Assembly: GCF_023055435.1 (NCBI RefSeq)
Contig: NW_025964383.1
Coordinates: 48,670,001-48,734,000, forward strand
Source: Haliotis rufescens
Lineage: Eukaryota
Direction of reading: 5' to 3'
DNA: 64,000 nucleotides
Part shown: one piece after another, positions 29,308 to 61,272 of the stretch
Layout: the number at the start of each line of letters is the position of its first letter
How positions within the stretch are numbered: the first letter of the stretch is position 1
Notes under the pieces: model-generated
The model's database searches: none
What the model was told of the DNA's origin: nothing
What the model saw: the letters and a program-made list of their open reading frames with translations, nothing else
Translations under genes and position numbers: made by a program

Positions 29308-29932
29308 NNNNNNNNNNNNNNNNNNNNNNNNNNNNNNNNNNNNNNNNNNNNNNNNNNNNNNNNNNNNNNNNNNNNNNNNNNNNNNNNNNNNNNNNNNNNN
29401 NNNNNNNNNNNNNNNNNNNNNNNNNNNNNNNNNNNNNNNNNNNNNNNNNNNNNNNNNNNNNNNNNNNNNNNNNNNNNNNNNNNNNNNNNNNNNNNNNNNN
29501 NNNNNNNNNNNNNNNNNNNNNNNNNNNNNNNNNNNNNNNNNNNNNNNNNNNNNNNNNNNNNNNNNNNNNNNNNNNNNNNNNNNNNNNNNNNNNNNNNNNN
29601 NNNNNNNNNNNNNNNNNNNNNNNNNNNNNNNNNNNNNNNNNNNNNNNNNNNNNNNNNNNNNNNNNNNNNNNNNNNNNNNNNNNNNNNNNNNNNNNNNNNN
29701 NNNNNNNNNNNNNNNNNNNNNNNNNNNNNNNNNNNNNNNNNNNNNNNNNNNNNNNNNNNNNNNNNNNNNNNNNNNNNNNNNNNNNNNNNNNNNNNNNNNN
29801 NNNNNNNNNNNNNNNNNNNNNNNNNNNNNNNNNNNNNNNNNNNNNNNNNNNNNNNNNNNNNNNNNNNNNNNNNNNNNNNNNNNNNNNNNNNNNNNNNNNN
29901 NNNNNNNNNNNNNNNNNNNNNNNNNNNNNNNN
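29308..29932. other. Assembly gap (625 N)
   Basis: Run of N. Confidence 1.
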
Positions 29933-30189: not shown

Positions 30190-30665
30190 CCTATGCTTGT
30201 CGTGCGGTTTTCGTAACGATATATCAACTAAGATATGCTTGTCGTGCGGTTTACGTATCGATATATCCACTAAGCTATGATTGTCTTGCGCTTTACATAA
30301 CGATATATCCACTAAGCTATGCTTGTCGTGGGGTGTACGTCACGATATATCCACTAATCTATGCTTGTCTATGGGTGTACGTAACGATATATCCACTAAG
30401 ATATGCTTGTCGTGCAGTTCACCTAACGATATATCCACTAAGATATGCTTGTCATGCGCTTTACATAATGATATATCCACTAAGATATGCTTGTCGTGCG
30501 CTTTACATAACGATATATCCACTAAGATATGCTTGTCATGCGCTTTACATAACGATATATCCACTAAGCTATGCTTGTCGTTGGGTGTACGTAACAATAT
30601 ATCCACTAAGATATGCTTGTCGTGCGGTTTACCTAACGAAATATCCACTAAGCTATGCTTGTTAT
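30190..30665. repeat. 42-bp minisatellite, ~11 units
   Basis: Unit cgatatatccactaagatatgcttgtcgtgcgctttacataa; gives 14-aa periodicity in several frames. Confidence 0.95.
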
Positions 30666-31867: not shown

Positions 31868-34783
31868 TCAATCAAGGGAAAATTCTGTGACAGGAACAAG
31901 TCGACACTGCTCTGTACTGGCGCCTTCTTGGATCTCGTCTGGTAGCTGACCAACTCTGTCTCCCTCAGTCATATCCTCATAGTGATGTAGTGACATGTAC
32001 TCCCTGCTGGGGGCATCTGTCTGTGCCGCGTTCACGGCCTCATCATTAGCACCGTGTTTCCTGTAAACAGAATGTTTCATTTTGTCAAACACAAGAACAA
32101 CATATTTATTAATGCACACGCACAATTATGCATTGATGTTTTAAATTATCAATTGTGTATTTAGCGGTCATGTGTTGTATTAAAAAAGATAATAGATTTG
32201 ATATTTTACTTTACGTCTCTCCATCTACCAATCGTTTACATCACAACGTTGTCCGGTTACTCGATGATAACAACATGCCATTTTACACTATATATAGTCA
32301 ATACCAACCGTAATCATTAGAAATATCCGCTTGAAACAAAGTATGTTGTGCGCTTCCAACTAGGCTTTACAAAGGCCGTGAATGTTGTCAGTTTGATCTA
32401 ACAAGTTTTGAACAAACTTATACGCTCGTAGAAAGAGCATGTTCGGTTGTAGCTCACAAGTGAAATGCGGACACCAAAGGCTGGAACTTCCTCGACAAGA
32501 ACAAACCTTTTCGTACTCAATCCTTTACGGTAACAGACGTAACATGTGAAACTAGCCACAAGGATGATAATAATATTCAACACAACTAGTGTCAAGGTCA
32601 CAGTGTTGGAGGCCTCTGGGTTCTGCACGTCTGAAATAGGTAACAAATCACAATCATGGAACATAGTGTCTGCCAAGAAGTGAGTGGGTGTATGTATTTT
32701 AACATGCTCCGGATTGTAAATCACAAAGAGTCCATACTGCATCGATCGAAGGAAGTGTGATACAATAGTACTCGGTCATGTATCAAAGCGTGACTTGGTT
32801 TCCCATATTTGCATTCTACGATTTAAAAACTTTTACAAGTTCCAGGTTAACCCATTTTAAAGGATCCAGAAGGAGATTGCTAGTGATACCACATTCCTGT
32901 ATACATCAAGCAAACAAACAAACAAACAAACTATACTCCTGTACTCCTGGTCACAAACACCCTCGAGAGAACTAATTACAACTATCTCCAACTGCTGTGA
33001 CCGCTGAAACAAGCTTCAGTGTCCAAAGATCAATATTAAATGGCGGTCTGTCAGAGCTCTCAGCATGGCTTACCTGTGTCACAGGATCCCGTAGAACAAT
33101 TAGATAATGAGGCGTTGTTTGTGCAGTTGTACCTACACGTGTATCGAGTGATGTTGTACACAGGTATACATAAACTGGAGCTTGTGTCAGTAATATCATC
33201 CTGACATAAATTGCATGATAGGTTGCAACCATCCCCAGCTAAACCACTGTTGCAACCATTGCAACAAGGTCCGATGTTTAAGGCACAGGTGAGGTTGAGG
33301 CACTTCTCCAGGCATCGTTCACATCCATACTTAATATGTCTCTGTGCACATCCTTCAATACACGCACCTGCGCGGTTACACCTTTGATGTGTGCAGTCAG
33401 AGTTGCATCGCCTTGAACACTTCGGGCCGTACCAGCCATCTACACAACCGTGAACACACTCGCCAGTCTGGCTGTGGCACTCTGGGGTACATGAGTCTCC
33501 CTCAGGACATTGTTCATCAGTAGACAGGGAGGGATCAGCTCGGCAGGTGTCACTGCATGCTTCAGTACAGTTGTCTCCATAGAATCCTTGTCTGCATCCC
33601 TGTTGGCAGCCACTCTCACATCCACCGACACAGTGCTCACACGAGGATCTACAGTCCAGTCCAGAATATGGAGGCTGACACTCCTCACATGTTCCTGTGA
33701 TCCTGTTGCAGGACTTACATCTGCTGGAACACGTCCTACATCCTGCTCCGTGGTATGAGTCGCTGCAGCCAGAGAAACAAACTCCACCCATCTGGCAATA
33801 CTCGCCATCACATCCACCTGGGCATCTGGTACAGTTGCCATTGTTATTGTAACATGGCCTCTGGCAGTTTGAGCCTTGGAATCCCGGGATGCAGCCATAA
33901 GTACATCTCCCAATACCCCTATCAGGAAGCAGGTGACATGTGTTGTTCCTGCACCTTGTGCTGCAAACATCCCTGTATGTGGCGCCGAAATATCCCCTAT
34001 GGCACTCTGTGAGGCATCCTTGTGTCTGCGCATCACACTCGGAGCATTGCTGAATACTCCAACAGTTAGCACCTAGAAAAGAATATGATAAAGATATATT
34101 TTGCTATACATATTTGATCAAGAAAGTTACTGCAACAACACACACAATTGGGTGATGTAATGTGAGTTGGGTTTAACGCCGCTTTTAACAGTATTCCAGT
34201 CATATCACAGCGTGTGTGATGTAATGTGGAAAAGTGTTGCCAGCAATCCAGTAGAAGCAGCTTAACTTCTTATGCCAGTCAGACAAGTCTCGACAACATA
34301 ATCGTGTATTTGGTCGGGTTTGGGAAAATAATGCCACAAGTCTTGGCGATGCGGTCTGCAAGTCTGCAATCTTGCGAAGGAGATATAGAAATACAATGAG
34401 CAGTGTAAGGACAGGTCATGAGTGACTTTTCAACAGGGGGACGCACATTTCATAAGTTTCTTTTCTAATGCACTTTCCTCACCTCCAATATAAAGAGATT
34501 TTGTCAATTGGTATGCAGTCAAAACCACTGTTTATCTATGATTATGAAGAACATTATAACAAAAAAGCATAAACATGACGCCCACGTACAATAAGGTGCA
34601 TTCATTATCTATGGGCATCGTTATTAAACAACTAATTTGATGATAATGTCAAAACCTTGAAGCGCCGCCAACAAGTCCTACGATGACCTACCTCATGCAG
34701 CACAATGAATATAGATAACTCATCTGCTTACCTTGTGTGGGGATAAGCATCCATGCAATCACTGTTATCCCAAGAGGCCACAT
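31868..34783 (-). CDS. EGF/laminin-EGF-rich type-I membrane receptor (MEGF10/Draper/SCARF-like), ~455 aa, 4 coding exons: 34783-34732, 34072-33074, 32630-32507, 32060-31868
   Basis: Signal-peptide exon MWPLGITVIAWMLIPTQG. A 999-bp Cys-rich exon with CxxGyyGxxC units. TM exon (LTLVVLNIIIILVASFTCYVCY followed by RK). Tail exon with YMSL/YEDM. All introns are GT-AG with compatible phases (1,1,2), and the exons total 1368 nt. An acceptor at 34791 implies an upstream 5'UTR exon. Confidence 0.88.
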
Positions 34784-34924
34784 TGTCTCCCTGAGCATGA
34801 AATGAAGCAAATTAAAACAGCTGATTAATGTCCGGTTAGAGGATACAATCTCACCAATCCTCGACGTTAGTAGTTGAGTGCATCGTCCATAGACCACATA
34901 GACCTCTGATGACGTCATCGCGTA

Positions 34925-35116
34925 CCCGTGAAGATTCCGGGGTAGAATAGGTCTTCAGCAACCTATGCTTGCCGTAAAAGGTGACTATGCTTGTCGGAAA
35001 AGGCGACTAACGGGATCGGGTGATCAGACTCGCTGACTTGGTTGTCTGGTCGATTTTTTACAGACCGCCGTCATATAGCTGTAATATTGCTGAGAGCGGC
35101 CAACCAACCAACCAAC
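34925..35116 (+). mobile_element. SINE-like repeat family B inserted into the left Polinton TIR
   Basis: cccgtgaagattccggggtagaataggtcttcagcaacc... with a (caac)n tail; absent from the right TIR. Confidence 0.8.
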
Positions 35117-35379
35117 GTGACCTGCGCAGGGCATTGTGGTCAGGTGTGACGTCACGATGATGTCACTTCCGGTTCCGGTGGCAGTGCGCATCCAAGATGG
35201 CGGCACGTCCAGTTCCGGGGTTCGTGCACCTCCAAGATGGTGGCACGTCCGGTTCCGGGGGGACCATCTCCTCATCCAAGAGAGCGGCACGGTGCCTCCA
35301 AGAGGGCGGCGGTGGCGGAAGGGAGGGAGGGCGGGGAGGCGAAGGCGTCGGCGGCGGCAGCGCGAGGTCTGGGAGGGAG

Positions 35380-35380
<1 letters not shown>

Positions 35381-35423
<43 letters not shown>

Positions 35424-35424
35424 A
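35381..35424. repeat. (GGC)n microsatellite
   Basis: About 14 GGC units. Confidence 0.95.
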
Positions 35425-35564
35425 GTGATTGTTGACGGCTCAGGATATGGGTATTTCGATCACATTCGTGTCCAATCGTGCCTCTCATTAAATCAGATCT
35501 TAGTTTTCGCTGTTGGTTGGCAAAGCTCAGAGGACATCCCAGTTACGGCCACGTCACAACGTCG

Positions 35565-38500
35565 GTAAGACTGAGTGTACGCCCCTGTAAGACTGACTGT
35601 ACACGTCTGAAAGACAGACGTACATCCCTTAAGACTGACTGTACAATTATGTAAGACTGGCTGCACACCCCTTAAGACTGACTGTTCACCCCTTAAGACT
35701 GTCTGTACACCCATATAAGGCTGTCTGTACACCCATGTATGACTGACTGTACACCCATGCAAGACTGACTGTACATCCCTGTTAGGCTGACCGTACATCC
35801 ATATTGATTTAAACATAATTATAAAACTGATTGATCACTGACAGTACGCTCAGGTAATATTGTCGGTAACCTTCTACGGTTCAATTAACTTACATCAACT
35901 GACTGTACAGCCCTTGAGACTGACTGTACATCCCTTAAAAATGACTGCACAACTCTGTAAGACTGACTGTACACTCTTGAAGGCAGACTGACTGTACATC
36001 CATCACAAGGGTCTGTCAGGGTCTGTTGACTGTACAACCCTGTAAGACTAAGTGTATACCACTGTAAGACTGGCTGTACATCCTTTAAGATTGACTGTAC
36101 ACCCATATAAGGCTGACTGTACATCCATGTAAGACTGACTCTACAACCCCGTAAGACTGACTGTACATCCCCGTAAAGCTGACAGTACACCCCTTTAGAT
36201 GACTATACACCCCTTGTAAGAGTGACTGTACACCACTGTAAGACTGATTGTGCACCCCTGTATGATTGACTGAACAACTTCTTAAGATTAACTGTACAAA
36301 CCTGTAAGACAGACTGTAAAACTCTGTAAGCCTGACTGTACAGTCCTTAAGAATGATTGTACAGTCCTTAAGAATGATAGTACAACCCCGTAAAACTGAC
36401 TGTACAACTCTGTAAGATTGACTGTACAGTCCTAAAGACTGATTGTACAACCCCGTAAAACTGACTGTACAACGCTGTAGGAGTGACTGTTCACCCATGT
36501 AAGACGGAGTGTACAACCCTGTAAGACTGACTGTACACCACTGTAAGACTGAGTGTACAACCCTGTAAGACTAAGTGTACAACCCTTTAGAGTGACTTTA
36601 CATCCATGTAAGACTGTGTGTACAACCCATGTAAGACTAAGTGTACACCACTGAAAGATTGACTGTACAATCCTGTAAGACTAAGTGTACACCACTGTAA
36701 GATTGACTGTACACCCCTGTAAGAATGAGTGTACACCACTGTAAGACTAACTGTACACCCCTGTAAAACTGACTGTACACCCCGTCAGACTGACTTTAGA
36801 GCCCTTAAGAATGATTGTGCAACCCTGTAAGACTGACTGTACAACTCTGTAAGATTGACTGTACAACCCTTAAGACTAAGTGTACACCACTGTAAGATTG
36901 ACTGTACAACCCTGTAAGACTAAGTGTATACCACTGTAAGATTGACTGTACAACCCTATAAGACTAAGTGTACACCACTGTAAGGTTGACTGTACAACCC
37001 TGCAAGACTAAGTGTACACCACTGTAAGATTGACTGTACAACCCTGTAAAACCGAGTGTACACCACTGTAAGACTGACTGAACAACTTCTTGGGATTGAC
37101 TGTACAACCCTGTAAGAAAAACTGTAAAACTCTGTATGACTGACTGTACAGTCCTTCAGAATGATTGTACAGTCCTTAAGAATGATTGTACAACCCCGTA
37201 AAACTGGTTGTACAACTCTGTAAGAGTGACTGTACACCACTGTATGACTGAGTGTATAACCCTGTAAGACTAAGTGTACACCTCTGTAAGATTGGCTGTA
37301 CAGCCCTGTAGGACTTACTGTGCACCCTTGTAAGACAGACTGATTGTACACCCTTGTAAGACTGACTCTACAACCCCGTAAGACTGACTGTACATCCCCG
37401 TAAAGCTGACAGTACACCCCTTTAGATGACTATACACCCCTTGTAAGAGTGACTGTACACCACTGTAAGACTGATTGTGCACCCCTGTATGATTGACTGA
37501 ACAACTTCTTAAGATTAACTGTACAAACCTGTAAGACAGACTGTAAAACTCTGTAAGCCTGACTGTACAGTCCTTAAGAATGATTGTACAGTCCTTAAGA
37601 ATGATAGTACAACCCCGTAAAACTGACTGTACAACTCTGTAAGATTGACTGTACAGTCCTAAAGACTGATTGTACAACCCCGTAAAACTGACTGTACAAC
37701 GCTGTAGGAGTGACTGTTCACCCATGTAAGACGGAGTGTACAACCCTGTAAGACTGACTGTACACCACTGTAAGACTGAGTGTACAACCCTGTAAGACTA
37801 AGTGTACAACCCTTTAGAGTGACTTTACATCCATGTAAGACTGTGTGTACAACCCATGTAAGACTAAGTGTACACCACTGAAAGATTGACTGTACAATCC
37901 TGTAAGACTAAGTGTACACCACTGTAAGATTGACTGTACACCCCTGTAAGAATGAGTGTACACCACTGTAAGACTAACTGTACACCCCTGTAAAACTGAC
38001 TGTACACCCCGTCAGACTGACTTTAGAGCCCTTAAGAATGATTGTGCAACCCTGTAAGACTGACTGTACAACTCTGTAAGATTGACTGTACAACCCTTAA
38101 GACTAAGTGTACACCACTGTAAGATTGACTGTACAACCCTGTAAGACTAAGTGTATACCACTGTAAGATTGACTGTACAACCCTATAAGACTAAGTGTAC
38201 ACCACTGTAAGGTTGACTGTACAACCCTGCAAGACTAAGTGTACACCACTGTAAGATTGACTGTACAACCCTGTAAAACCGAGTGTACACCACTGTAAGA
38301 CTGACTGAACAACTTCTTGGGATTGACTGTACAACCCTGTAAGAAAAACTGTAAAACTCTGTATGACTGACTGTACAGTCCTTCAGAATGATTGTACAGT
38401 CCTTAAGAATGATTGTACAACCCCGTAAAACTGGTTGTACAACTCTGTAAGAGTGACTGTACACCACTGTATGACTGAGTGTATAACCCTGTAAGACTAA

Positions 38501-38920
38501 GTGTACACCTCTGTAAGATTGGCTGTACAGCCCTGTAGGACTTACTGTGCACCCTTGTAAGACAGACTGATTGTACACCCTTGTAAGACCGACTGTACAC
38601 CCCTGTAGACTTACTGTACACCCATGTAAGACAAACTGACTGTACACCCTTGTAAGACCGACTGTACAACCCTGTAAGACTGACTGTACACCCTTGTAAG
38701 ACCAACTGAACAACTCTATAAGACTGACTGTACAGCCCTGTAGGACTTACTGTGCACCCTTGTAAGACAGACTGATTGTACACCCTTGTTAGACCGACTG
38801 TACACCCCTGTAGACTTACTGTACACCTTTGTAAGACAAACTGACTGTACACCCTTGTAAGACCGACTGTACAACTCAGTAAGACTGACTGTACACTCTT
38901 GAAGGCAGACTGACTGTACA
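35565..38920. repeat. ~22-bp satellite (gtaagactgactgtacaaccct) with a 1227-bp higher-order duplication
   Basis: Tandem units; variant patterns recur at offset 1227 (36129 vs 37356; ORFs 36956 vs 38183). Confidence 0.95.
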
Positions 38921-39304
38921 TCCATCACAAGGGTCTGTCCGGTTTGGCTCAGACAAGGTGCCGGAACGGATCCATAGACGTGCTGCGTTTTCAACCCTTC
39001 AGGAAGCAGGGTTTCAATGCCTGTCCTATAAAAATTAAAAAGAGCGAAGCCACGCACACCGTCACAGTCCTAGCACTGAATGAGCTGTCGATGCAGCTGT
39101 CTGACGTGCCAGACCAAAGGTCAACAATGTCCGTGGACCGAAAGAACGCTTTCATCCTTTGCTTTGCCAATACAAACAACAATCAAAAAGAACCCACACC
39201 CTTCCCAGTCCTCTTGGAGGTACACGCCTACGAGTGACACCATGTATCTTTGTATGTTTGTAAATACTACTATTTAAAAACGTCTGTTTGAAGGCACGCA
39301 TGAC

Positions 39305-39835
39305 ACCACGTTTGCATGGAGACACGCGTGACACCACGTTTGCATGGAGACACGCGTGACACCACGTTTGCATGGAGACACGAAGAACATCACGTGTGCA
39401 TTGAGACACGAAGTACATCACATTTGCATGGAGACACGAAGTACATCACGTTTGCATGGAGACACGAAGTACATCACGTTTGCATGGAGACACGAAGTAC
39501 ATCACGTTTGCATGGAGACATGAAGTACATCACGTTTGCATGGAGACACGAGTGACAGTACGCATGTAGACATACACGAGTGCCACTTCCTCGGCGTGGA
39601 TGAACGAGTGACAACGTCACGCATGTCTATCGATCTATACTTCAAAAACGTCTGTTCGTAGTCAAGCGTGACACCACGTTTGCATGGAGACACGAAGTAC
39701 ATCACGTTTGCATGGAGACACGAAGTACATCACGTTTGCATGGAGACACGAGTGACAGTACGCATGTAGACATACACGAGTGCCAACTCCTCGGCGTGGG
39801 TGAGCGAGTGACAACGTCATAATCATATTGATAAA
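39305..39835. repeat. 28-bp minisatellite (cacgtttgcatggagacacgaagtacat) in two subterminal blocks
   Basis: Tandem units at 39305-39550 and 39670-39750, each followed by a shared ~70-bp tail. Confidence 0.9.
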
Positions 39836-40973
39836 CGTCTGTTTGTAGTCACGAAGTAAATCTCGTTTGCCGCCGCCGCCTTCCCGCCCTCTTGGAGGCA
39901 CCGTGCCGCCCTCTTGGATGGGGAGATGGCCCACTCGGAACCGGAAGTGACGTCATCGTGACGCCATCCTTGACCCACAATGCCCTGCGCAGAGGTCAAA
40001 GGTCAAAAGTGGTCCTAGGACGATGCACTCAACTACTGACGTTTACGCTCCCTAAGTCATACATAGGATGTGATAATTACTAGATGAAGACACATGTTTA
40101 GTAACACAACTTCACGTCAGGTCTATAATACAAATATTAGGAATATGCGTATAAATGTTAACCAATTAACCTCAGCTCTTTCACAAAATATTGTCATGCG
40201 CCAAGCTACTGCTACACCGGTCAGCTTAAATGTGCAAATATGCTCGTGCTTGAAAAATAGGTTATTTAACATACAATGGGTAGGTTTCTCCGATCAAAGG
40301 TTGTACTTTCGTGTTCCCATAGTGAAAATAGGACGAGTGCAACTGAGTTGTCATGCTCCAGAAATATATAAATAGTTTTACATTAAATTAATGGTATATA
40401 TAGAACATGGGATATTTCATTACATGATTTCAGTTTCCATCCTATTGTCCATTATTTACAAAAAGCAAATTTTATAATAAAAATAACAATAATAATAATA
40501 ATAATAATAATTATATTATGTGTAAAATACGTCAAACGTGTGAGAGTAGTTGTATTTACTGATGATGTTTTGACCAATGGTGCGTCATAAAGTCACACAC
40601 TGTTGTTCCATAGTCTGAAGTACTTCACAGGGGGGAGGAACTAGAAGTTAATAGTATGTTTCATTATCATATATATGACATATGAACTGTATTATGTGAA
40701 CCTATTTGAAGCCATGTTTATCAAGAAACCTAGATGTTGATAAGATTAGGCAACAGTGTACTCAGCAAGTGGACACGGCAGATGCTGGTGATTAAATAAA
40801 TGTTCACAACGATTGATTATCGTGCGTATCGTGTAAGACTAATTTCAATTCAATTGCAACTTCCCTGACCACAGTTTTATATAATGAGTAATTTAAGACC
40901 TATAGCTGGGCCACTCTCGTCCGATGAGAAATATACATATCTTCATATGGCCTCCTTCATCTTATTACCACAG

Positions 40974-41360: not shown

Positions 41361-41947
41361 TAAGATGACATAGGAGGTTCTAGATTATACAATGATATTT
41401 CATTACACATTAATCAAATACAGTTCAAGGCTACTTGACATTTCATACTGTCGAGCACTGGATTGTCTGAACCAGACTTAAAGACCGCCGTCATGTAGCT
41501 GAAAAATCGTATATTGTTAAACAAGAAACAAGTAAACATATATCAAATTTGTAATAAACATTTAAGCCTGGGTCTCACCTTGCTCATTTGCGCGGCACCT
41601 CTCCTCTGCTGTTTTCCTAAATCGCGCGTTAATTGAAACTAACCCTGCTTCCTTGTTGATGACACGTCGCACCTCTACAGCTTCTAGTTGAGTTGCCTTG
41701 TCCTCATTTCAACAGGAAATCAAAACAAGCCAAGAGAGTTAATCTACTTTCGATAGCTGTAGTTTTTCCAATAATTGTATAAACTAAAATAGCCGTGTGT
41801 ATAGCGAGTCAGCGATTATCAATATTCACCTAGCAGAAACAGTGGTCAAGCTTCCAAACTATCCAGGGATATCCAGGGTAACAAAAAATGATCTTCAAAC
41901 AAGGGCTGCTCTTGATGTACTCTGAGATGAGAGACGCGTTTGTCCAC

Positions 41948-42700: not shown

Positions 42701-43053
42701 TCACCTTTATCATTGTATAACATTATGAAGAATGTTACCATGATACCATGATATCAGATATGTTTTCACTGAATGCGAAAAGAAACCAGATGTATACCCA
42801 ATGCTTATTTTTTTACTGACTCTAGTGAACAAGAAATATGCTAATAATATCGAATGACCAAGTAAGATTGGTTGTATAGCTCTCTTAGTTGAGTTTAACA
42901 TGATGGATTAAAGAAAACAAAGACTGGTCCCGTGCCGTCTTCATTGATGTCACCGTCAGTGATCGGACTGAGGTAAGCTGACAGGTTGGTCAGCCTCTGT
43001 ATCCTGTAGGTTGTGTTGCTTCACCTGCACCGGCCTGTGAACCTTCATCCGAG

Positions 43054-47006: not shown

Positions 47007-47203
47007 GATCCGGGTAGAATAGGTCTTCAGCAACCCTTGCTTGCCATAAAAGGCGACGCTGATTGTCGTAAGAGGCGACTAACGGGATCGGGTGGTCAGG
47101 CTCGCTGAATTGGTTCATGCATGTCAACGTATCCCAATTGCGTGGATCGATGTTCATGATGTCAATCACTTGAGTGTCTGGTCCAGACTCGATTATTTAC
47201 AGA
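47007..47203 (+). mobile_element. SINE-like repeat family B
   Basis: gatccgggtagaataggtcttcagcaacc...ggtccagactcgattatttacag. Confidence 0.8.
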
Positions 47204-50267: not shown

Positions 50268-52679
50268 TTAAAACAACGACAGTATACGTTCATGTTTCTT
50301 TGTTTGTGCGATGTCTGCTGCTGTAGCACCACTCTTGTTGACATCCTTGATGTCTATTCCAGGCAGTGGGAGGATGTACTGCACCATCTGCACATTGCAT
50401 TCTTCATCTCCTCCAGCACAGGCGACGTGAAGGATGTTGTTGTCGTCATCATCAACCACAGACGAATCACAACCCTTCTGTAGAAGGAAATCTAATACGT
50501 CTATATGTCCACCCTCTGATGCTATCATCGCTGCAGTCTTCCCGTACCTGCCCCTGCTGTTGATGTCAATAGATGTACCCATCAGGACCCTCTCCACAAT
50601 GTCCTCATTTCCTCCACTAGATGCTAGATGCAGGATGTTGTTATTGTAAACATCCACAAGTGTCAAAATGGCCCCTTCTTTCACAAGTAAGTCAAATAAA
50701 GGTTTACATCCGCGGTTTGCTGCCACCATCACCGGCGTCCTTCCGTCTCGCCCTGCACTGTTGATGTCGAAAAAGTGTTTTAAGAGTAGATAGTTTGCAA
50801 TGCTCATATTATCGCGAATGCAGGCCAGTTGGAGCATATTGTCACCATGGTTGTCTACATGTAGGAGATTTGCATGTTCCCTAATGAGAAGTTCCAGAAC
50901 GTCTCTGTTGCCCTGACGTGCTGCCAACATCGCTGGCGTCTGCCCCCGGCAGTCTTTCGTGTCAATGTCAACAAGTTCTAGTGTCAGGAGTTCAGTCACC
51001 ATGATCACATTGTTTCCTAAGCAGGCCAAGTGAAGGATGTTCATTCCATCAGCATCTACTTCTGAAACATCACCCCCTTTACAAACTGTGAAATAGAAGA
51101 CGTCAATGTTGCCAAATTCTGCTGCAAACATCATGGGCGTCCGTCCATGTTTACCCTTACAGTTGATATCAAAATACCCTTTAGAGACAATATACTTCAC
51201 CATCTCTGCGTGTCCTCCCATGCATGCCACATGGAGGATATTATCATTATCCTCATCAACGACAAACACATCACATTGTTTTGTCAAAAGGAGATCAAAC
51301 ACTTTCATATTGCCTTTCTCAACTGCCATCATCAATGCAGTTCGCCCTTTGTATTTTCCCCTTTTGTTGATGTCAAAGGTGAACCGGGAGAGTACATATT
51401 CTACCATATCCACATGACCCCCACGACAGGCAGCATGGAACACCGTATCTTCTTCCTCATTATCAAGTGACAAATCACATCCTTCACCCAAAAGAAAATC
51501 GAAAACATCCTTACGGCCACTCTCTGCCGCAAGGATCAACATCCTCCCATCATTCAGGCCATCCGTGAAATCCAGTGAGGCGATATGCATTATCATTGGT
51601 AAATCCCCTCCAAGACAAGCAACATAAATGAGCTTGTTCCCCAAGCTGTCTCTGATGGTGATGTCCCCTCCTTTACGCCTCACTATCTCAAAGGCTTCCT
51701 TGTGTCCTGTTTCTGCTGCCGCCATCAGGGGTGTCCTCCCCTTCGTGTCTGTGCCGTGGATCTGTTGCTGCTGTCGCCCTGGTAAGTTCCTGTCACAGAT
51801 GTGCTGCACCATGCTCCTGTAGCCTCCCCTGCACGCCACATGGAGGATGTTGTTGCCCTCGGTGTCTTTCATCGACCTGTCTCCTCCTTCTTTTAAGAGT
51901 AGGTTGTACACGTCTTTGTGTCCACACTCCGCTGCTACCATCAATGGTGTTCTTCCATCTTGCCTCCTACTGTTGATTCCCACAAGGCGCTTTGAGAGGA
52001 TGTACTTCACAATGTGCACCTTCCCTCCAGCACAAGCCACGTGAAGGATGTTCAATCCCTTGTCATCTAACAGCGACGTGCTGCCTCCTTTCTCTATGAT
52101 CAAATCGAAAATTCGTCGAGAACCAGCCCATGCTGCCTTCATTATTGGGGTTCTGCCTAACTTCCCTCTACAGTTGATGTTAAATATTTTACGTGAAAGC
52201 AGATGTTCAACAATGAACAAATGGCCTTTAAGACAAGCCAAGTGCAGAAGGTTATCACCATCATCCCCAACATGTCTCACATCGCAGTTGATGTTGTTTA
52301 TAAGTTCCAGATACACATGTCGACACCCATGTCGAGCGGCCACCATCACCGGCGTCCATCCGTGTTTGCCTCTCACGTTGATGTCAATCCTTCCATCTGA
52401 GAGAATCAACTTCACTATTTTCAGACGATTTCTGGAGCAGGCAACATGCAAAATGGTGTCACCATCTTCATCCAAGAGTGACATGTCAGCTTGCTTCCTG
52501 TGGAGTAGTTTAAACACCCCAACATGCTCCCCATGTGCAGCTGCCATCACCGGTGTCCAGCCGTGTGCCCCCCTGGTGTTGATGTCCACTCGATCTTCCT
52601 GTAGGATGCGAGTAACTGCATCCAACCTCCCCGAGCAGCAGGCCTGGTACAGATCCGTGTTGATGTTGGTGGACGACAT
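50268..52679 (-). CDS. Ankyrin-repeat protein A, ~803 aa, ~23 repeats, single coding exon
   Basis: Uninterrupted ORF of alternating GRTPxMxAA / GDNILHVAC repeats. Acceptor tatcttgcag|G immediately precedes ATG 52679. Candidate 5'UTR exon donor CAG|GTAAG at 53263. Confidence 0.92.
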   Translation of the reverse strand: MSSTNINTDLYQACCSGRLDAVTRILQEDRVDINTRGAHGWTPVMAAAHGEHVGVFKLLHRKQADMSLLDEDGDTILHVACSRNRLKIVKLILSDGRIDINVRGKHGWTPVMVAARHGCRHVYLELINNINCDVRHVGDDGDNLLHLACLKGHLFIVEHLLSRKIFNINCRGKLGRTPIMKAAWAGSRRIFDLIIEKGGSTSLLDDKGLNILHVACAGGKVHIVKYILSKRLVGINSRRQDGRTPLMVAAECGHKDVYNLLLKEGGDRSMKDTEGNNILHVACRGGYRSMVQHICDRNLPGRQQQQIHGTDTKGRTPLMAAAETGHKEAFEIVRRKGGDITIRDSLGNKLIYVACLGGDLPMIMHIASLDFTDGLNDGRMLILAAESGRKDVFDFLLGEGCDLSLDNEEEDTVFHAACRGGHVDMVEYVLSRFTFDINKRGKYKGRTALMMAVEKGNMKVFDLLLTKQCDVFVVDEDNDNILHVACMGGHAEMVKYIVSKGYFDINCKGKHGRTPMMFAAEFGNIDVFYFTVCKGGDVSEVDADGMNILHLACLGNNVIMVTELLTLELVDIDTKDCRGQTPAMLAARQGNRDVLELLIREHANLLHVDNHGDNMLQLACIRDNMSIANYLLLKHFFDINSAGRDGRTPVMVAANRGCKPLFDLLVKEGAILTLVDVYNNNILHLASSGGNEDIVERVLMGTSIDINSRGRYGKTAAMIASEGGHIDVLDFLLQKGCDSSVVDDDDNNILHVACAGGDEECNVQMVQYILPLPGIDIKDVNKSGATAADIAQTKKHERILSLF

Positions 52680-53056
52680 CCTGCAAGATACATAGTAAGT
52701 GATTAGTCTACGACTGCACACATTTAATAAAGTATAACACTCTGGGGCATAGCTAAGTGATTAAAGACAGGTTCCATTCCTCACATATGTACATTTGAAA
52801 TCCTTTTATTGGTTTCAATGCTTTGATATGGATGAAATATTGCTAACATTAGCAGCAGAAAAACGCCCTCAAAATCTAAATAGTTGTACATTTAGTTATG
52901 TAATTGTTATGTCACAAGTGTTATGTCACAATTGTTATGTATGTAGACATTATTTTGTTGGGGAACAACCATGATGATGTGTCATGATGACCCCCAAAGA
53001 TCCTGCACTTATTATCGTGCATTGTCTTGTATAAGTATGTGTCTTTCTCTATAAAG

Positions 53057-53216: not shown

Positions 53217-54860
53217 CTCTCTATGAAGACATTTACCTTAATTAATCACAGAGAATACTTACCTGTCTGTTTCACCCGCTATTCATTATCAGGCGGCGTT
53301 GACGGCATGTTCAGTAGCGACCGCGGAGCGTGTGATCGTACAAACACAGAGAATATCTTTGTAATATACTTATACTTATAACTTGCGATTGTTAGGCCGG
53401 CTATAAATGCACGTGGTCGACCGGCAATGAATCGTTTTGTGCCGTCAGCAAGTCGCTATGCACTGTGCCGTACTGCAGACAGTCCTACATTCTTTAAGTG
53501 CCTGTATTGTGTTGTAGTGTGCAATCATATTCAGCCATACCGGTATGTGCGTGGAACCACGATGTAGATACGCATAAATAAACGTGCATGTACTGATCGT
53601 TCAAGTTTTGTCAAGAATAGTTGCAATTGTTGTAGATCTGATGCCAGACACTCAAATACATTCAATGGTATTTACGACTTGAATGTAATGCATTGTATGT
53701 ATGGCGGGTCAAATCCACCTGGGCATGTAGTGTATCTGGTCAATGGTTGTCCACGAGTGGCCTGATTCTAAATTACTCATTCGTGTGTCTGACACATGTA
53801 GCATATAGAGAGTTTCGTTGAGTTTCGTTGATATATTTCATATCAAAAGACACGAGAGTGAGATTTTATTTATCATCCAACATCATTCTTCCAACTTGTT
53901 CAGTTTGTATACAGTAATAAACGGTGTCTTAAGTGTAAAAAGTACTGATAGCAGCTTCAGTAGCAGAGACATTAGTGATGTCATTTGATTGTGACGTCAT
54001 GTAACAATGACGTCACAATGCCTGCAAAACATTGTAATGCAATTTCATTGCAGCAATATCTACAATGTAGTTATCGCTTGATCTCACCCAAGGATATCTC
54101 TCGTAGGAGCCAGTTCTTGATGATAAAATTAATTCCGTCACAAAAAATTAAATGTAGAATAAAATCACAAATAAATCAAAGTGACATCGTCACCAAATCA
54201 TATGTCTCGTGTTTTTTGCCATTGCCAAATTAGTTTACATTTGCTGCTAATGGTATATTTACATATTATCTCATTCTCATCACGTTTCTCGAAGTTTATG
54301 AATTCAGGTATGTTATTTCCTACATGAACTTTATACTGAATGGACTGATAGAATCACTGGTGCAATGTGCGCTATGTACACCTTCATGGCGGCATGCGTG
54401 CTTTGTTCAAGAACGTGAGATCTGAGCGCCGTGCTGCTCTCTGTCACATCGTGGATACGTGAGACAACCATCGCGTTTTACAACATTTCTGTTTTATTAA
54501 AGACATTGGTGACATTTTATAGGGACGTATACTAGTTTACGTACAAGTGTCGAACACGACCATGTGTTTACCGCGTGATTATATTATAGGTAGTATTTAT
54601 AGGTGTATTAAATATTGCAAGGATTGCCCACGTGTAACGGAAAGATAGTTGCATAGATGTCACGACGGTTCTCAGAAGAACAGAATGTTGGTCGGCTCCA
54701 GGTATGTGCGTCATTGAGCGCAAGGGTGGCAAAGCAGATATTAATATTACAGATGACAAATCTCTTACAAACGCACACACAATGTTACAATCGGTCCGTC
54801 CCACGTGAAACCTGTCACGTAGCATAGCCATACAGCAAGTGTGTTCTGTCCACTTCACGA

Positions 54861-55437
54861 CTTGTCTGACGTTACGTCTTGTCTGACGTTACGTCTTGTC
54901 AGACGTTACGCCTTGTCTGACGTTACGTCTTGTCTTGTCTGACGTTACGCCTTGTCTGACGTTAGTTCTTGTCTGACGTTAGGTCTTGTCAGACGTTACG
55001 CCTTGTCTGACGTTAGGTCTTGTCAGACGTTACGCCTTGTCTGACGTTACGTCTTGTCTTGTCTGACGTTACGCCTTGTCTGACGTTAGTTCTTGTCTGA
55101 CGTTAGGTCTTGTCTGACGTTATGCCTTGTCTGACGTTACGTCTTGTCTGACGTTATGCCTTGTCTGACGTTACGCCTTGACTAACGTTACGTCTTGTCA
55201 GACGTTACGTCTTGTCTGATGTTATGCCTTGTTTGACGTTACGTCTTGTCTGACGTTATGCCTTGTCTGATGTTATGCCTTGTCTGACGTTATGTCTTGT
55301 CTGATGTTATGCCTTGTCTGACGTTACTTCTTGTCTGACGTTATGCCTTGTCTGACGTTACGTATTGTCTGACGTTACGCCTTGTCTGATGTTACTTCTT
55401 GTCTGACGTTATGCCTTGTCTGACGTTACGTCTTGTC
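54861..55437. repeat. 17-bp minisatellite (gtctgacgttacgtctt), ~33 units
   Basis: Tandem units visible directly. Confidence 0.95.
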
Positions 55438-56801
55438 TATTGTTTTTTCTCTCAATAGATTTGCTGAATAACTGATTGGGTATGTTTATTCAATTGGATA
55501 AATAAACATGGAAAGTATGGCACAACATTATATGTGCATGCGTCTGTTAGATAGTGACCACATCAACTTAACGTGTTGTTAAAGGCGAATGGATCTGGTT
55601 GTCAGACTCGGTGCCTTACTTGATTTAGTTTCATCATACCGCAACGGTCTGAATCGTTGATTAGAATACCAATGGCTTGTTTGTGTGGTCCAGATCCAAG
55701 TATTCACAGACCTCCCGTCATAGCTGGATTTTGGCTGAATGTTGTGCTAGCCTGTTATAGCGTCTAATATAACCAACGGATGAAAATGTACCCAATGTCG
55801 ACATAACTTTTAAAGCTATGCATAGAGTGGTGGCTAGTATCTGAAAATATGTCCGGTATGTAGGTGATATATAATATTTAGTGAATATGCTGCTACAAAC
55901 CTGTTTTAGGATTACCATTTATACAATGATTACAGCTATGTTATATGATATATCGACAAGAGGGTCTATGGTTGAATCGGAATGTATTAAATAACCATTA
56001 ATGGTTGGCTTGCCCGCTGAAGGTGTTATGCAAAGGAGAAATATGGTGATATTGTGCCCGCGTGAAGATATGCGTGGGCGATTCACAACTGTGAGCGTAT
56101 TTATGAATGGATCCATTATCTGATAGAATTCACTCGATGATACAGTTGGTTATGGCATTGTTCATTTCGTTTATGTAGTACCTCAAAGTCCCTATCACGC
56201 ACATTGGACTGTTTGAAAAAGGTGGTAGCAAACCGTGGGCTGGTGAATGCATCCACTTCTTTTCATTTCACATTTGATGGCACATTGCCATCCAAGCTTG
56301 CAAACCCGACAGTTAGCATACATGCACATGCACGTCTTGACATCTCAAGGCATGCATGCAGTCTATGGCGCTGCAATGCACTAAACAGAATAAAGTCGCT
56401 TGACCTTTGATTCTCTGCTTTTGTATTTACATAACAGATGCTCCCCCGTTTATGACTCTTGGTCTGTCAGTTCTATGCCTTTGATACAAATACACGGGTT
56501 ATACTCACACTCTCAACAAAAGCTTTATTGTTACTTTCTGTAATACCTTCCTCAAGGTGGGCGACAGAGACAAACACACCGATGTGATTAGTTGGCTATA
56601 GTTTACAGATTGCATGATAGTGTTTACAATACAAGCGTACAATCATAGAATCACACAAAAAAGGATGAAAATGGTAAATTATATCATAAATATATGGACA
56701 CAAAATATGTTGTGTTTCTCGTCAAAGGACCCCGCTAGTTTCTCCATTCAGTTGATGTTTGACCACAATCGTGACAAAGTGGTCAGCAGTACTGGCCATC
56801 A

Positions 56802-59800
56802 TCAACTTGGCATGTTGTCCGAGAGCCCCTGGTGGCCGTGTTCCCTGGCTACCATTGCTGCTGTGGACCCGAAATGGTTCCTGGCAGTCACGTCAACAAG
56901 GTCCAGCTGGATTATGTGTTTCACCATCTTCTCATCTCCCCCACTGCACGCCACGTGGAGGATGTTGTCCCCGTTTACATTCAACACAGACACGTCACAT
57001 TCTTCACTGACAAGGAAGTCAAACACCTGAATGTGTCCACTCTTTGCTGCCAACATCAGCGGTGTCATCCCAACATGTTCTACACCGTTTATGTCGACCA
57101 TGTCGCGCAGAACCACATACTCCACCATCTCCAGGTGCCCCCCGCTGCAGGCAACGTGTAACAGGTTATCACCATTGTGATTCACCAGAGACACATCTGC
57201 TCCTCTTCTTACAAGCAGGTCTACCACACCTAAATGGCCCATTCGTGATGCAATCATCACTGCTGTCCTTCCGTACTGATTTGTGATGTTGAGATTTACA
57301 TGATATTTATAAAGAATGTGCTTCACCATGTCCAAGTGACCCCCATAGCAAGCCACGTGGAGGATGTTGTCCCCGTGGTTATTTACAAGTGACACATCTG
57401 CACCTCTGCTTACCAGGAGATCAAACACGCCCTTATGTCCCCAGCGTGCTGCGATCATGACGGGTGTTCTCCCGTACTCGCCTCTGCTGTTAATGTCCAC
57501 AACATGCTCTGAGAGGACATACTTGACTATGTCTGTGTTGCCCCCGATGCAGACAACGTGGAGGATGTTGTTGTTGTAGTCATCCACCAGAGACACGTCT
57601 CCACCTCTACTGATGAGCAAGTCCATCACGTCTCGGTGTCCCCCCTCAGCTGCTGACATGAGCGGCGTTCCTCCGTACTGCCCCCCGCTGTTGATGTCCA
57701 CAATGTCCAGTGAGACGATACATTCCACCATCTGCACATGTCCTCCAATACAGGCCACGTGGAGGATGCTGTCTCCATTGTCATCAACACACAACATGTC
57801 ACTGCCTTTACACACAAGGAAGTAAAACACATCCCGATGTCCAGACTCCGCTGCAAGCATCGCCGCCGTCCTCCCGTACTTCCCTCCACTGTTGATGTCA
57901 ACGATGTTTAGCGAGAGGACATACTTCACCATCTCTACATCTTCCCCTAAGGAGGCGACGTGGAGAATGTTGTTACCGTCATCATCCACCAGGGATGGGT
58001 CACCACCTTTACTTACGAGGACATCAAACACGTTTCTATTTCCCCTTAAAGCTGCAAACATCAGGGGTGTCTGTCCAGTCTTCCCTCTACTGTTCATGTC
58101 ACAAAGGTCCAATCTTAGGACATATAGAACCATCTCTATGTGTCCGCCAAGACAGGCTATATGGAGGAGGTTGTTATTGTCCACATCCGATACGGATAAA
58201 TCACATCCCTGCGCCCTAAGTAGATCAATTACTTTTGTATGACCCCTTTCTGCTGCAAACATCAGAGGAGTTCGATCATTGCTTCCTATACTTGTGACTC
58301 CAGCAATGTTTTCTGACATGACACGCTGTACAATCTTCACACTACCCCCACTACATGCCAGGTGTAGTATGTTGTTGTTGTGACCATCCTTTAATGACAG
58401 GTCAGCTCCTTTACCGACAAGCAAATCAAACACTCCTCCATGTCCCCCCTCAGCTGCTAACATCACTGGCGTCTGTCCGTTTCTTGTCTTACTGTTGATG
58501 CGAGCGATGCGTTTAGAGAGACAATGCAGCACCATGCTGCTACTTCCTCCCCGACACGCCACATGGAGCAAGTTTTCACCGTTAGAATCCACGAGTGACA
58601 CATCACCACCTTTATCAACAAGTACATTTAACACGCCCCTGTGTCCAAACATCGCTGCAATCATCACAGGCGTCCTCCCGCTCTTACCCCGGCAGTTGAC
58701 GCCGACGATGTGCTTGGACAGGATGTGCTTCACCATAGGCACATTATCTCTGTTACATGCTAAGTGTAAGATGGTGTCTCCGTGCTCGCTCACTACGGAC
58801 AGGTCAGCTCCTACCCTTTCAAGAAGGTCAAACACGGTCACATGACCTCCCCATGCTGCTTTCATAACTGGGGTTCTCCCGAACTTTCCTCGACTGTTTA
58901 TGTCAATAAAATCTTGTTCCAGGATATATTTCACTATCTCTATATTACCTCCCAAACATGCAAAATGCAGAATGTTGTCATCATCATCGCTCACTTGAGT
59001 TACATCGCTGCCGTTACTAACAAGGAAGTCAAACACCTTCTTGTGGCCATACCATGCTGCTAGCATCACCGGCGTCCTGCCGTCCTTTCCTTCAGCGTTG
59101 ACATCCGCTTGGCCACCAGACAGCAAGTGCTGCACTTGCTGCAACTTGCCCGTTCTACAGGCGACGTGGAGAACACTGTCAGAACTGGATGTACGTTTAG
59201 GAGCCACTGGAGGGACACAGGCGACATGGTGGTCACTGTCAGAACTGGATGTACGTTGAGGAGGAACTGGAGGGACACAGGCGCCGTGGAGGTCACTGTC
59301 AGAACTGGCTGTACGTTGAGGAGGAACTGGAGGGACACAGGCGCCGTGGAGGTCACTGTCAGAACTGGCTGTACGTTGAGGAAGAACTGGTGGGATAAAG
59401 GCGACGTGGTGGTCACTGTCAGAACTGGCTGTACGTTGAGGAGGAACTGGAGGGACACAGGCGCCGTGGAGGTCACTGTCAGAACTGGATGTACGTTGAG
59501 GAGGAACTAGTGGAACACAGGCGCCGTGGTGGTCACTGTCAGAACTGGATGTACGTTGAGGACGAACTGGTTGAACACAGGCGCCGTGGTGGTCACTGTC
59601 AGAACTGGATGTACGTTGAGGAGGAACTGGAAGGACACAGGCGCCGTGGAAGTCACTGTCAGAACTGGATGTACGTTGAGGACGAACTGGTTGAACACAG
59701 GCGACGTGGTGGTCACTGTCAGAACTGGATGTACGTTGAGGAGGAACTGGAGGGACACAGGCGCCGTGGAGGTCACTGTCAGAACTGGCTGTACGTTGAG

Positions 59801-61272
59801 GAGGAACTAGTGGAACACAGGCGCCGTGGTGGTCACTGTCAGAACTGGATGTACGTTGAGGACGAACTAGTGGAACACAGGCGCCGTGGTGGTCACTGTC
59901 AGAACTGGATGTACGTTGAGGACGAACTAGTTGAACACAGGCGCCGTGGTGGTCACTGTCAGAACTGGCTGTACGTTGAGGAGGAACTGGGGGGACACAG
60001 ACGCCGTGGTGGTCACTGTCAGAACTGGATGTACGTTGAGGAGGAACTGGGGGGACACAGGCGCCGTGGTGGTCACTGTCAGAACTGGATGTACGTTGAA
60101 GAGGTACTGGTGGAACACGGGCGACGTGGAGGTCACTGTCAGAACTGGATGTACGTTGAAGAGGGACTGGTGGAACACGGGCGACGTGGAAGTCACTGTC
60201 AGAACTGGATGTACGTTGAGGAGGACCTAGAGGGACACAGGCGCCGTGGAGGTCACTGTCAGAACTGGCTGTACGTTGAGGAGGACCTAGAGGGACACAG
60301 GCGCCGTGGTGGTCACTGTCAGAACTGGATGTACGTTGAGGAGGAACTGGAAGGACACAGGCGCCGTGAAGGTCACTGTCAGAACTGGATGTACGTTGAG
60401 GAGGAACTGGGGGGACACAGGCGCCGTGGTGGTCACTGTCAGAACTGGATGTACGTTGAAGAGGGACTGGTGGAACACGGGCGACGTGGAGGTCACTGTC
60501 AGAACTGGATGTACGTTGAGGAGGACCTAGAGGGACACAGGCGACGTGGAGGTCACTGTCAGAACTGGATGTACGTTGAGGAGGACCTAGAGGGACACAG
60601 GCGCCGTGGTGGTCACTGTCAGAACTGGATGTACGTTGAGGAGGACCTAGAGGGACACAGGCGCCGTGAAGGTCACTGTCAGAACCTTCCGAACATGGGG
60701 TAGGAGAGGGGACGCTGTCCTTTGTTTCTGGAACATTAAATACAGCTAGAGAAGTCGTATTGTTTGGCTTTAAATCAACACTGTTGTTCACCAGATTGTT
60801 CAATACAACCACTTCCAAGTTTCGTTTTGATATCGTTATGTTAATATTTCGGATACAGTGGCATTAAAACCTTTCCAAATCATTAATATATTGTTCATTC
60901 ACGTACACACACAACCCGTGAAGACCCGGGTTAGAACAGGTCTCCAGCAACACATGCTTGTCCTAAGAGCCGACTAACGGGATCGGGTGGACAGGCTCGC
61001 TGACTTGATTGATGCATGTCATCGTATCTGAGTCGATGTTCATGATGTCAATCACAGGACCTTCTGGTTTAGCCTCGATTATTTACGGACCGTCGCCATA
61101 TAGCTGGAATATGGCAGATTTCGCGGTTTAACAACAAACAAATACATAAACAATGCATTTTAAAATCACACGAAGCCGAGGGATGGTGGAATAGCCTCAG
61201 CACTGATACAGGATGATGTAACTGGACAAGAGAAACACTCTTCAACTCATCTAACGCATCTAACGTACACGT

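What the first reader, a model, noticed from the sequence alone, without database searches (positions are those of the whole stretch)
34869..40037. Miniature Polinton/Maverick shell filled with satellites, just upstream of the receptor's first coding exon
Seen: AGTAGT...ACTACT termini, a perfect 6-bp TSD (GACGTT) and GC-rich TIRs. About 75% of the interior is 22-bp and 28-bp tandem repeat, and no integrase or polymerase is present. Established: Polintons have AG/AGT-repeat termini, 6-bp TSDs and are usually 15-20 kb. Inference: a non-autonomous derivative of an endogenous DNA virus that may carry satellites around the genome. It sits ~78 bp from the acceptor at 34791, so it could affect receptor splicing or expression.
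Basis: partly seen in the sequence, partly recalled or inferred. Interest (0 to 1): 0.75.

Follow-up and report, generated by a model that had tools for sequence, protein, structure and literature searches.

The report
Gene-less Polinton shell with tandem repeats
This is the emptied shell of a virus-like jumping element (a Polinton/Maverick), now mostly filled with short tandem repeats and sitting just upstream of a receptor gene; such shells are a known kind, and nothing here shows that this one spreads the repeats or changes the gene.

Summary
The element spans 34869-40037, with perfect 20-bp inverted tips starting AGTAGT, a 6-bp duplication (GACGTT), inverted ends 91% alike over 147 aligned bases, 73.6% tandem repeat and no recognisable gene. 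These ends fit published Polinton/Maverick ends, so a gene-less Polinton derivative is the best reading. No autonomous partner could be sought, because no genome is held.

Contigs of public runs add three points. The right junction is present in 3 of 4 runs, under two organism labels; in one run it is on both flank haplotypes. The insertion therefore looks old and tolerated. The inner inverted repeat has only a few diverged relatives (summed depth 3.5-34x the flank). The 28-bp repeat is far more abundant (180-620x) and also continues in other forms, which weighs against these shells being its main carrier.

The receptor gene looks intact, and no effect on it was shown. Non-autonomous Polintons, Polintons as satellite spreaders and a Polinton-derived promoter are all in print. 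Verdict: a new member of a known kind.

The parts
34863..34868 (.). Left copy of 6-bp target-site duplication, GACGTT
34869..34909 (+). Left TIR, outer part: (AGT)2 tip, 20 bp perfect, 26 of 29 identical to the right tip
34924..35118 (+). Nested dispersed host repeat (about 195 bp, ends in a CCAA microsatellite) splitting the left TIR; boundaries approximate
   Evidence: relatives at 47012, 8541, 19576, 60914-61118, 30986, 41478; absent from the right TIR
35119..35330 (+). Left TIR, inner GC-rich part, with two 40-bp units (35184-35260) that the window's right TIR lacks; holds CRE-, ETS-, YY1- and GC-box-like words
35380..35423 (+). (GGC)14 microsatellite at the inner edge of the left arm
35431..35555 (.). 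Short non-repeated spacer 1, no family hit
35556..38930 (+). 22-bp tandem array, about 153 units, 71% matches between units
36128..38581 (+). Exact 1227-bp tandem duplication inside the 22-bp array (36128-37354 = 37355-38581): very recent or an assembly error
   Evidence: exact run of 1235 bases at lag 1227; the next longest run is 62
38931..39272 (.). Non-repeated spacer 2 (342 bp); its frames match no family
39273..39853 (+). 28-bp tandem repeat (about 16 units) in three higher-order blocks; member of an abundant repeat family
   Evidence: summed contig depth 180-620x flank over 39720-39844
39860..40037 (-). Right TIR, uninterrupted, ends ACTACT on the + strand
   Evidence: bridged to the flank by contigs in X6, X7, X12
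40038..40043 (.). Right copy of the TSD, GACGTT; G>A at 40041 in the two organism-B runs
34732..34792 (-). Host gene: putative splice acceptor (34792-34791) and first coding exon (ATG at 34783, signal-peptide-like), donor GTAAG
33074..34072 (-). Host gene: 999-bp Cys-rich exon (59 Cys), laminin-EGF-like by a weak lead only
   Evidence: Atlas 0.92 to a mollusc cluster with PF00053 on 35% of members; no Pfam or PDB hit
32507..32630 (-). Host gene: transmembrane exon
31870..32060 (-). Host gene: last coding exon, cytoplasmic tail with two tyrosines

Best explanation
The element is an old, gene-less derivative of a Polinton/Maverick. Inferred from family knowledge: a Polinton retrovirus-like integrase joined the ends into this site with a 6-bp staggered cut, which gave the GACGTT duplication. 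The AGT-repeat tips and GC-rich inverted ends are the parent's origins for protein-primed replication and probably its end promoters. The coding interior was lost, either before insertion (a short copy moved in trans by a helper) or afterwards in place; the data do not separate these. Shown: the interior is now two tandem-repeat families, the arms have diverged to 91%, a host repeat sits in the left arm, and the right junction is shared by runs under two organism labels. Inferred: the arrays grew or were captured by slippage and unequal exchange and ride along passively. This copy is probably immobile and tolerated upstream of an intact receptor gene.
For: Ends and TSD match the commonest vertebrate Maverick end motif, 6-bp TSDs and TIRs of 46-1447 bp (PMC8097293). 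Polintons occur in molluscs, gastropods included (10.1101/2023.08.22.554363), and the host gene points to a mollusc (lead). No gene remnants were found. Age: arms 134 of 147 alike; nested repeat; contigs bridge the right junction in X6, X7 and X12; in X6 the bridging contig has depth 46.6, about the sum of the two flank haplotypes (19.9 + 27.8); the TSD is mutated in organism B. Low-copy family: inner TIR at 3.5-34x flank depth, with variant arms seen as loose ends and small deletions. Passive repeats: 28-bp region at 180-620x.
Against: No autonomous Polinton with these ends was found or could be sought in the host genome; exact-match scans of viral, metagenome and prokaryote collections gave no relative, though these collections hold few animal sequences. 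The outer 43 bp of the right TIR is at 1.0x flank depth in 3 of 3 usable runs, so no second copy of the tip was seen; the relatives of the inner arm might not end in AGTAGT. No empty site was seen, so the TSD is not confirmed against an unoccupied allele. Summed contig depth is not a copy number. Only the right junction was laid.
Confidence: 0.65

Rival explanations
1. Carrier family: a mobile non-autonomous Polinton family whose copies all hold these arrays, often much longer ones, and so seed the 22-bp and 28-bp repeats across the genome.
For: Both arrays lie between the TIRs and have no match elsewhere in the window. The 28-bp blocks run up to the right TIR, and contigs show head-to-tail runs of the block (tables 5 and 5c). 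The depth ratio could be met by about ten elements with tens of blocks each. The idea has precedent in Triatoma (PMC5983683 citing Bardella 2014).
Against: The linker part of the 28-bp block is at 181-325x against 3.5-34x for the TIR, while this copy has only three blocks. In all 4 runs the repeat also continues into an AAT-microsatellite form that this element lacks (table 7). No second terminus was seen. The abundance of the 22-bp repeat was not measured.
Confidence: 0.2
2. A non-autonomous element of another TIR superfamily (IS3EU/GingerRoot, hAT-like or unclassified) whose ends resemble Polinton ends by coincidence.
For: Only cis features tie it to Polintons. IS3EU/GingerRoot also makes 6-bp TSDs. 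A one-base wider reading gives TAG/CAG-type ends with a 4-bp ACGT duplication and the same empty site. TIR elements with tandem-repeat interiors are common in molluscs (PMC8268682 table).
Against: TA..TA readings have no TSD. The wider reading has a mismatch at the first base and needs two further chance matches. The exact (AGT)2//(ACT)2 motif is the published Maverick motif.
Confidence: 0.1
3. Add-on to the best reading: the right TIR is an inward-facing promoter, in the receptor's sense, that now starts receptor transcripts or changes their level.
For: CRE-, ETS-, GC-box- and (left arm) YY1-like words are more frequent than in shuffles: 4 of 8 word kinds in the left inner arm (0 of 5000 shuffles) and 3 of 8 in the right arm (8 of 5000) (words recalled and chosen after seeing the sequence). 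CpG o/e is about 1 in the arms. Precedent: Polinton-1N1_DR is a blood-specific TSS of dnase1l4.1 in zebrafish (PMC9341505). The insertion seems widely shared.
Against: No strong minus-strand donor word lies inside the element, whereas such words occur upstream at 41581 and 42705-42707. Motif words are expected in any Polinton end and do not show use by the host. No transcript evidence was obtained.
Confidence: 0.1
4. Chance arrangement or assembly artefact.
For: The exact 1227-bp duplication may be an assembly error, and the scaffold has a gap at 29308-29932.
Against: The chance expectation for the tips and the TSD is 0.01 and 0.005. Independent contigs bridge the right junction in 3 of 4 runs. 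An artefact would change the array's length only.
Confidence: 0.02

Closest known systems
Polinton/Maverick elements (polintoviruses, adintoviruses), as described for vertebrates in PMC8097293
   Same: (AGT)2//(ACT)2 end motif, 6-bp TSD, TIRs within the reported 46-1447 bp range, low copy number.
   Different: 5.2 kb rather than 12.7-24.6 kb; no pPolB, integrase, protease, ATPase or capsid gene; interior mostly tandem repeat.
Non-autonomous Polintons such as zebrafish Polinton-1N1_DR (name seen in PMC9341505; that the N suffix marks non-autonomous Repbase families is recalled, the entry was not seen)
   Same: Polinton-type element lacking its own replication and integration genes (by the naming convention); one copy of that family lies at a host gene's start.
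   Different: The interior of that family was not examined, so whether it is repeat-filled is unknown. Promoter use is shown there and not here.
Satellite-bearing mobile elements: Helitron-associated satellites of the oyster (PMC8268682), and Polinton-like sequence beside Triatoma satellite arrays (PMC5983683 citing Bardella 2014, not read)
   Same: Short tandem arrays enclosed by, or adjacent to, the ends of a mobile element; proposed route of satellite spread.
   Different: Here both Polinton-type ends and the TSD enclose two arrays in one intact shell; spread by the element is not shown.
IS3EU/GingerRoot DNA transposons (PMC10045372)
   Same: 6-bp TSD, TIRs.
   Different: TA..TA (sometimes TG..CA) ends; no such reading with a TSD exists here.

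Membership tests
Polinton/Maverick (autonomous) | [quoted passage not shown] | tested here: not met
   Longest frames lie in the repeats; 3 interior frames in Pfam and 11 in PHROGs gave no hit below E 0.1
Polinton/Maverick (autonomous) | Capsid, packaging ATPase and protease genes; length about 13-25 kb | tested here: not met
   5169 bp, under 500 bp of non-repeated interior
Polinton/Maverick (cis ends) | (AGT)2//(ACT)2 or (AG)3//(CT)3 end motif | tested here: met
   AGTAGT ... ACTACT; motif from PMC8097293
Polinton/Maverick (cis ends) | 6-bp target-site duplication | tested here: met
   GACGTT on both sides, only length that matches; not confirmed against an empty allele
Polinton/Maverick (cis ends) | Long terminal inverted repeats | tested here: met
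   About 180 bp on the right; 134 of 147 aligned bases alike; left arm interrupted
Non-autonomous Polinton family | Ends shared with an autonomous Polinton of the same genome | not testable with these tools
   No genome held; collection scans gave no relative
Non-autonomous Polinton family | Several copies of the short form at different sites with distinct TSDs | tested here: inconclusive
   Diverged inner-TIR relatives exist (3.5-34x), but the tip bin is at 1.0x and no second junction was seen among the rows shown; 156 loose ends and 992 pieces were not shown
IS3EU/GingerRoot | TA..TA (or TG..CA) termini with 6-bp TSD | tested here: not met
   No boundary pair within 6 bases gives such ends with a 6-bp TSD at both sides; definition from PMC10045372
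Satellite-carrying mobile element | Most arrays of the repeat lie between the element's ends | tested here: inconclusive
   28-bp family is about tenfold or more deeper than the TIR and has other continuations; 22-bp family not measured

The most novel reading that the evidence does not exclude
A helper-dependent Polinton satellite family whose whole interior has been replaced by expandable tandem repeats. The repeats would act as stuffer, so that copies reach a length the helper can replicate and package. The family would seed the host's abundant 28-bp repeat, and this copy's GC-rich end would have been taken over as a promoter of an EGF-repeat receptor gene.
Probability: 0.1. Interest if true: 0.65.

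Novelty: new member of a known kind. Interest (0 to 1): 0.3.

Why it matters
As it stands it is a clean example of a Polinton shell: it marks the cis ends (a 20-bp tip plus a GC-rich inner arm with promoter-like words) that can be used to find the autonomous Polinton in this host, and it is a case for repeat annotation, where satellite and transposon calls overlap. If other copies carried the same arrays with distinct TSDs, it would give direct evidence for a proposal that I found in print only on grounds of adjacency (Polintons spreading satellite DNA). If the right end started receptor transcripts, it would be a virus-derived promoter on a putative mollusc surface receptor. Neither is shown.

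Tried and rejected
Whole-genome search for other copies: no genome is held. Exact-match scans: viral contigs 0 hits for the tip, the inner TIR and both repeat units (4 scans); genome contigs 0 hits (2 scans); metagenome contigs 1 hit for the 20-mer, inside a bacterial reading frame with no second arm or TSD, rejected as chance. Earlier scan notes: none for this genome or for look-alike stretches. Run X1 had no cover over 39995-40019 or most of the flank and was left out of the depth ratios; this hole proves nothing. An 11-bp sub-periodicity of the 22-bp unit was suspected and is not there (identity 0.25 at lag 11 against 0.59 at lag 22). The three 11-kb tandem gene copies at 1-28 kb do not include the insertion site, so they give no empty site. 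No Rfam match. The receptor's Cys-rich exon has no Pfam or PDB hit; the EGF-like label is a lead. The 107-aa frame over spacer 2 got no Atlas result. The automatic alignment of the two ends was misaligned by the nested repeat and was replaced by block alignments.
Full report
Observation. The stretch 34869-40037 (5169 bp) begins AGTAGT and ends ACTACT, its tips are perfectly inverted for 20 bp, and GACGTT flanks it on both sides. This is far beyond chance: the 20-mer occurs 2 times against 0.01 expected, and 1 of 18 AGTAGT...ACTACT pairs in the window has a 6-bp duplication against about 0.005 expected. Of 17 symmetric boundary shifts only this one gives a perfect tip together with a 6-bp TSD. 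A reading one base wider gives a 4-bp ACGT duplication but a mismatch at the first base. Tandem repeats of 22 bp (152.8 copies) and 28 bp (15.9 copies) make up 73.6%. No gene was recognised: 0 of 3 interior frames hit Pfam at E<=0.1, 11 frames gave only 4 PHROGs hits at E 0.16-0.85, and Rfam gave none.

The arms are imperfect: 134 of 147 bases agree over four gap-free blocks. The left arm is split by a dispersed repeat of about 195 bp (about 34924-35118) with relatives at six other places in the window, and it holds two 40-bp units that the right arm lacks. Inside the 22-bp array, whose units are only 71% alike, 1227 bp are duplicated exactly; the next longest exact run is 62 bp. This is a very recent duplication or an assembly error; without it the element is 3942 bp. 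The 28-bp units are grouped in three higher-order blocks. Both arms are GC-rich and carry words like CRE, ETS, GC-box and (left only) YY1 sites. The left inner arm has 4 of 8 word kinds (0 of 5000 shuffles reach that) and the right arm 3 of 8 (8 of 5000). These consensus words are recalled and were chosen after I saw the sequence.

Host gene. On the minus strand four exons (34783-34732, 34072-33074, 32630-32507, 32060-31870) have canonical splice sites, matching phases and no stops. They give a signal-peptide-like start, a 59-Cys ectodomain, a transmembrane segment and a short tail. The Atlas's nearest cluster is a mollusc protein group with laminin-EGF on 35% of members (score 0.92 at a low recognition value, a lead); Pfam and PDB gave nothing. 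A putative acceptor at 34792-34791 lies 76 bases from the element, and its pyrimidine tract and a branch-point-like word lie in those 76 bases, outside the element. No upstream exon was identified, so the element is either in a 5' UTR intron or in the promoter.

Other copies and other individuals. No genome is held, and exact scans of viral, metagenome and prokaryote collections gave only one chance hit in a bacterial gene. Of 24 public runs listed, 14 hold 0.46-0.69 of the words, under two organism labels. First, single contigs bridge the right junction in 3 of 4 runs: X6 (organism A, 39916-40153, no difference), X7 and X12 (organism B, 39936-40153, one difference); X1 has a hole there. In X6 the bridging contig has depth 46.6, about the sum of two flank haplotypes that differ by a 149-bp deletion (19.9 and 27.8), so both carry the element end. 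In X7 and X12 the one difference is G>A at 40041, inside the TSD. No empty site appears among the rows shown (156 loose ends were not shown). The insertion therefore predates these flank variants, or at least is widely shared. Second, summed depth relative to the flank in the three usable runs is 181-622x over the 28-bp region, 3.5-34x over the inner TIR and 1.0x over 39995-40019. The tool warns that summed depth is no copy number, so only the order of magnitude counts. Variant arms exist: loose ends at 39927 (X6) and 39932 (X12, 5 contigs) resemble the left arm's 40-bp unit but differ from it (27 of 30 letters for X12, compared by eye). No second copy of the tip was seen; 20-30 conserved bases may be too short to be laid, so this is not proof of absence. 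Third, the 28-bp family runs head to tail and in all 4 runs also continues into an AAT-microsatellite form that this element lacks.

How it most likely works. Shown: Polinton-type ends, a 6-bp duplication, no genes, diverged arms, a nested insertion, an abundant repeat inside, and a shared junction. Inferred from family knowledge: a Polinton integrase made the insertion; the repeated AGT tip serves initiation of protein-primed replication (recalled); the GC-rich arms were the parent's origins and end promoters. The interior was lost either before insertion, with pPolB and integrase supplied in trans, or afterwards in place; the data cannot tell these apart. The arrays then grew or were captured. 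This copy is probably an immobile relic (0.65). Rivals: an active carrier family (0.2), which would need much longer arrays in the other copies; another TIR superfamily (0.1); promoter capture as an add-on (0.1); artefact (0.02, interior length excepted).

Comparison with what is known. I saw passages only, found by term search, of each paper named here. PMC8097293 gives (AGT)2//(ACT)2 as the commonest vertebrate Maverick end, 6-bp TSDs, TIRs of 46-1447 bp, sizes of 12.7-24.6 kb, and 96% of loci degraded. 10.1101/2023.08.22.554363 lists mollusc Polintons. PMC10045372 gives TA..TA ends for IS3EU/GingerRoot, the other 6-bp-TSD group, which fails here. PMC9341505 names Polinton-1N1_DR as a blood-specific start site of a zebrafish gene; that the suffix marks a non-autonomous family is recalled. 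PMC5983683 reports, citing Bardella 2014 (not read), Polinton-like sequence next to satellite arrays and the proposal that Polintons spread them. PMC8268682 lists one oyster satellite with Polinton similarity and shows that satellites inside mobile elements are common in a mollusc. 10.1101/2025.02.07.637071 shows polB-less polintons with cargo that stayed mobile, and 10.1101/2024.01.15.575659 shows Polinton TIRs reshaping a host gene. PMC3014272 reports an apparent absence of non-autonomous copies in a lizard, so they are not universal. Passages of PMC6431247, PMC4935994, PMC11296320 and PMC5499653 added little. In 9 searches I found no description of an intact Polinton shell filled with two tandem arrays, but the library lacks most subscription papers and Repbase, and supplements were not read. 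Earlier scan notes describe gene-less Polinton offshoots in other animal genomes (unchecked AI notes), which suggests the kind is not rare.

Verdict. It is not an autonomous Polinton (defining genes tested, not met). It has the cis ends of one and is best filed as a gene-less Polinton derivative, with the link to a helper untested. New member of a known kind; interest 0.3. The boldest reading not excluded is a helper-dependent family that uses expandable repeats as stuffer, seeds the 28-bp repeat and lends this receptor a promoter (probability 0.1, interest 0.65).

Noticed in passing
window 517-28312: Three tandem copies of an ~11-kb unit (89-97% alike), each with a 513-aa open frame on the + strand (no Pfam hit for the first copy) and a 63-bp tandem array.
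   Followed up: no
window 29308-29932: Assembly gap of 625 N between the tandem gene copies and the receptor gene.
   Followed up: no
window 50268-52760 and 56802-60863 (-): Two long single-frame ankyrin-repeat genes (830 and 1353 aa frames; Pfam run on the first only); the second begins with a 60-bp coding tandem array.
   Followed up: partly
window 30192-30662, 54857-55438, 61626-63997: Further tandem arrays of 42, 17 and 17 bp, unrelated to those in the element; the last runs off the window.
   Followed up: no
window 40154-40302: 149-bp deletion polymorphism in the right flank: in one X6 haplotype and in X7 and X12; a high-copy short repeat overlaps 40245-40319.
   Followed up: partly
window 8541, 19576, 30986, 34924, 41478, 47012, 60914: Abundant ~200-bp dispersed repeat family ending in a 4-bp microsatellite; from memory it resembles an interspersed repeat common in abalone genomes (recalled, not tested).
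   Followed up: partly
window 39936, runs X7 and X12: The junction-bridging contigs of organism B stop matching at 39936 (41 further letters in X7), where the left arm has extra 40-bp units; that allele's right arm may keep a unit that the window's allele lost (inference).
   Followed up: no
L001 1-4700: Bacterial contig with three consecutive recombinase-like frames (417, 519, 627+ aa) next to a truncated deacetylase-like gene; names are recalled from the look of the sequences, not searched.
   Followed up: no
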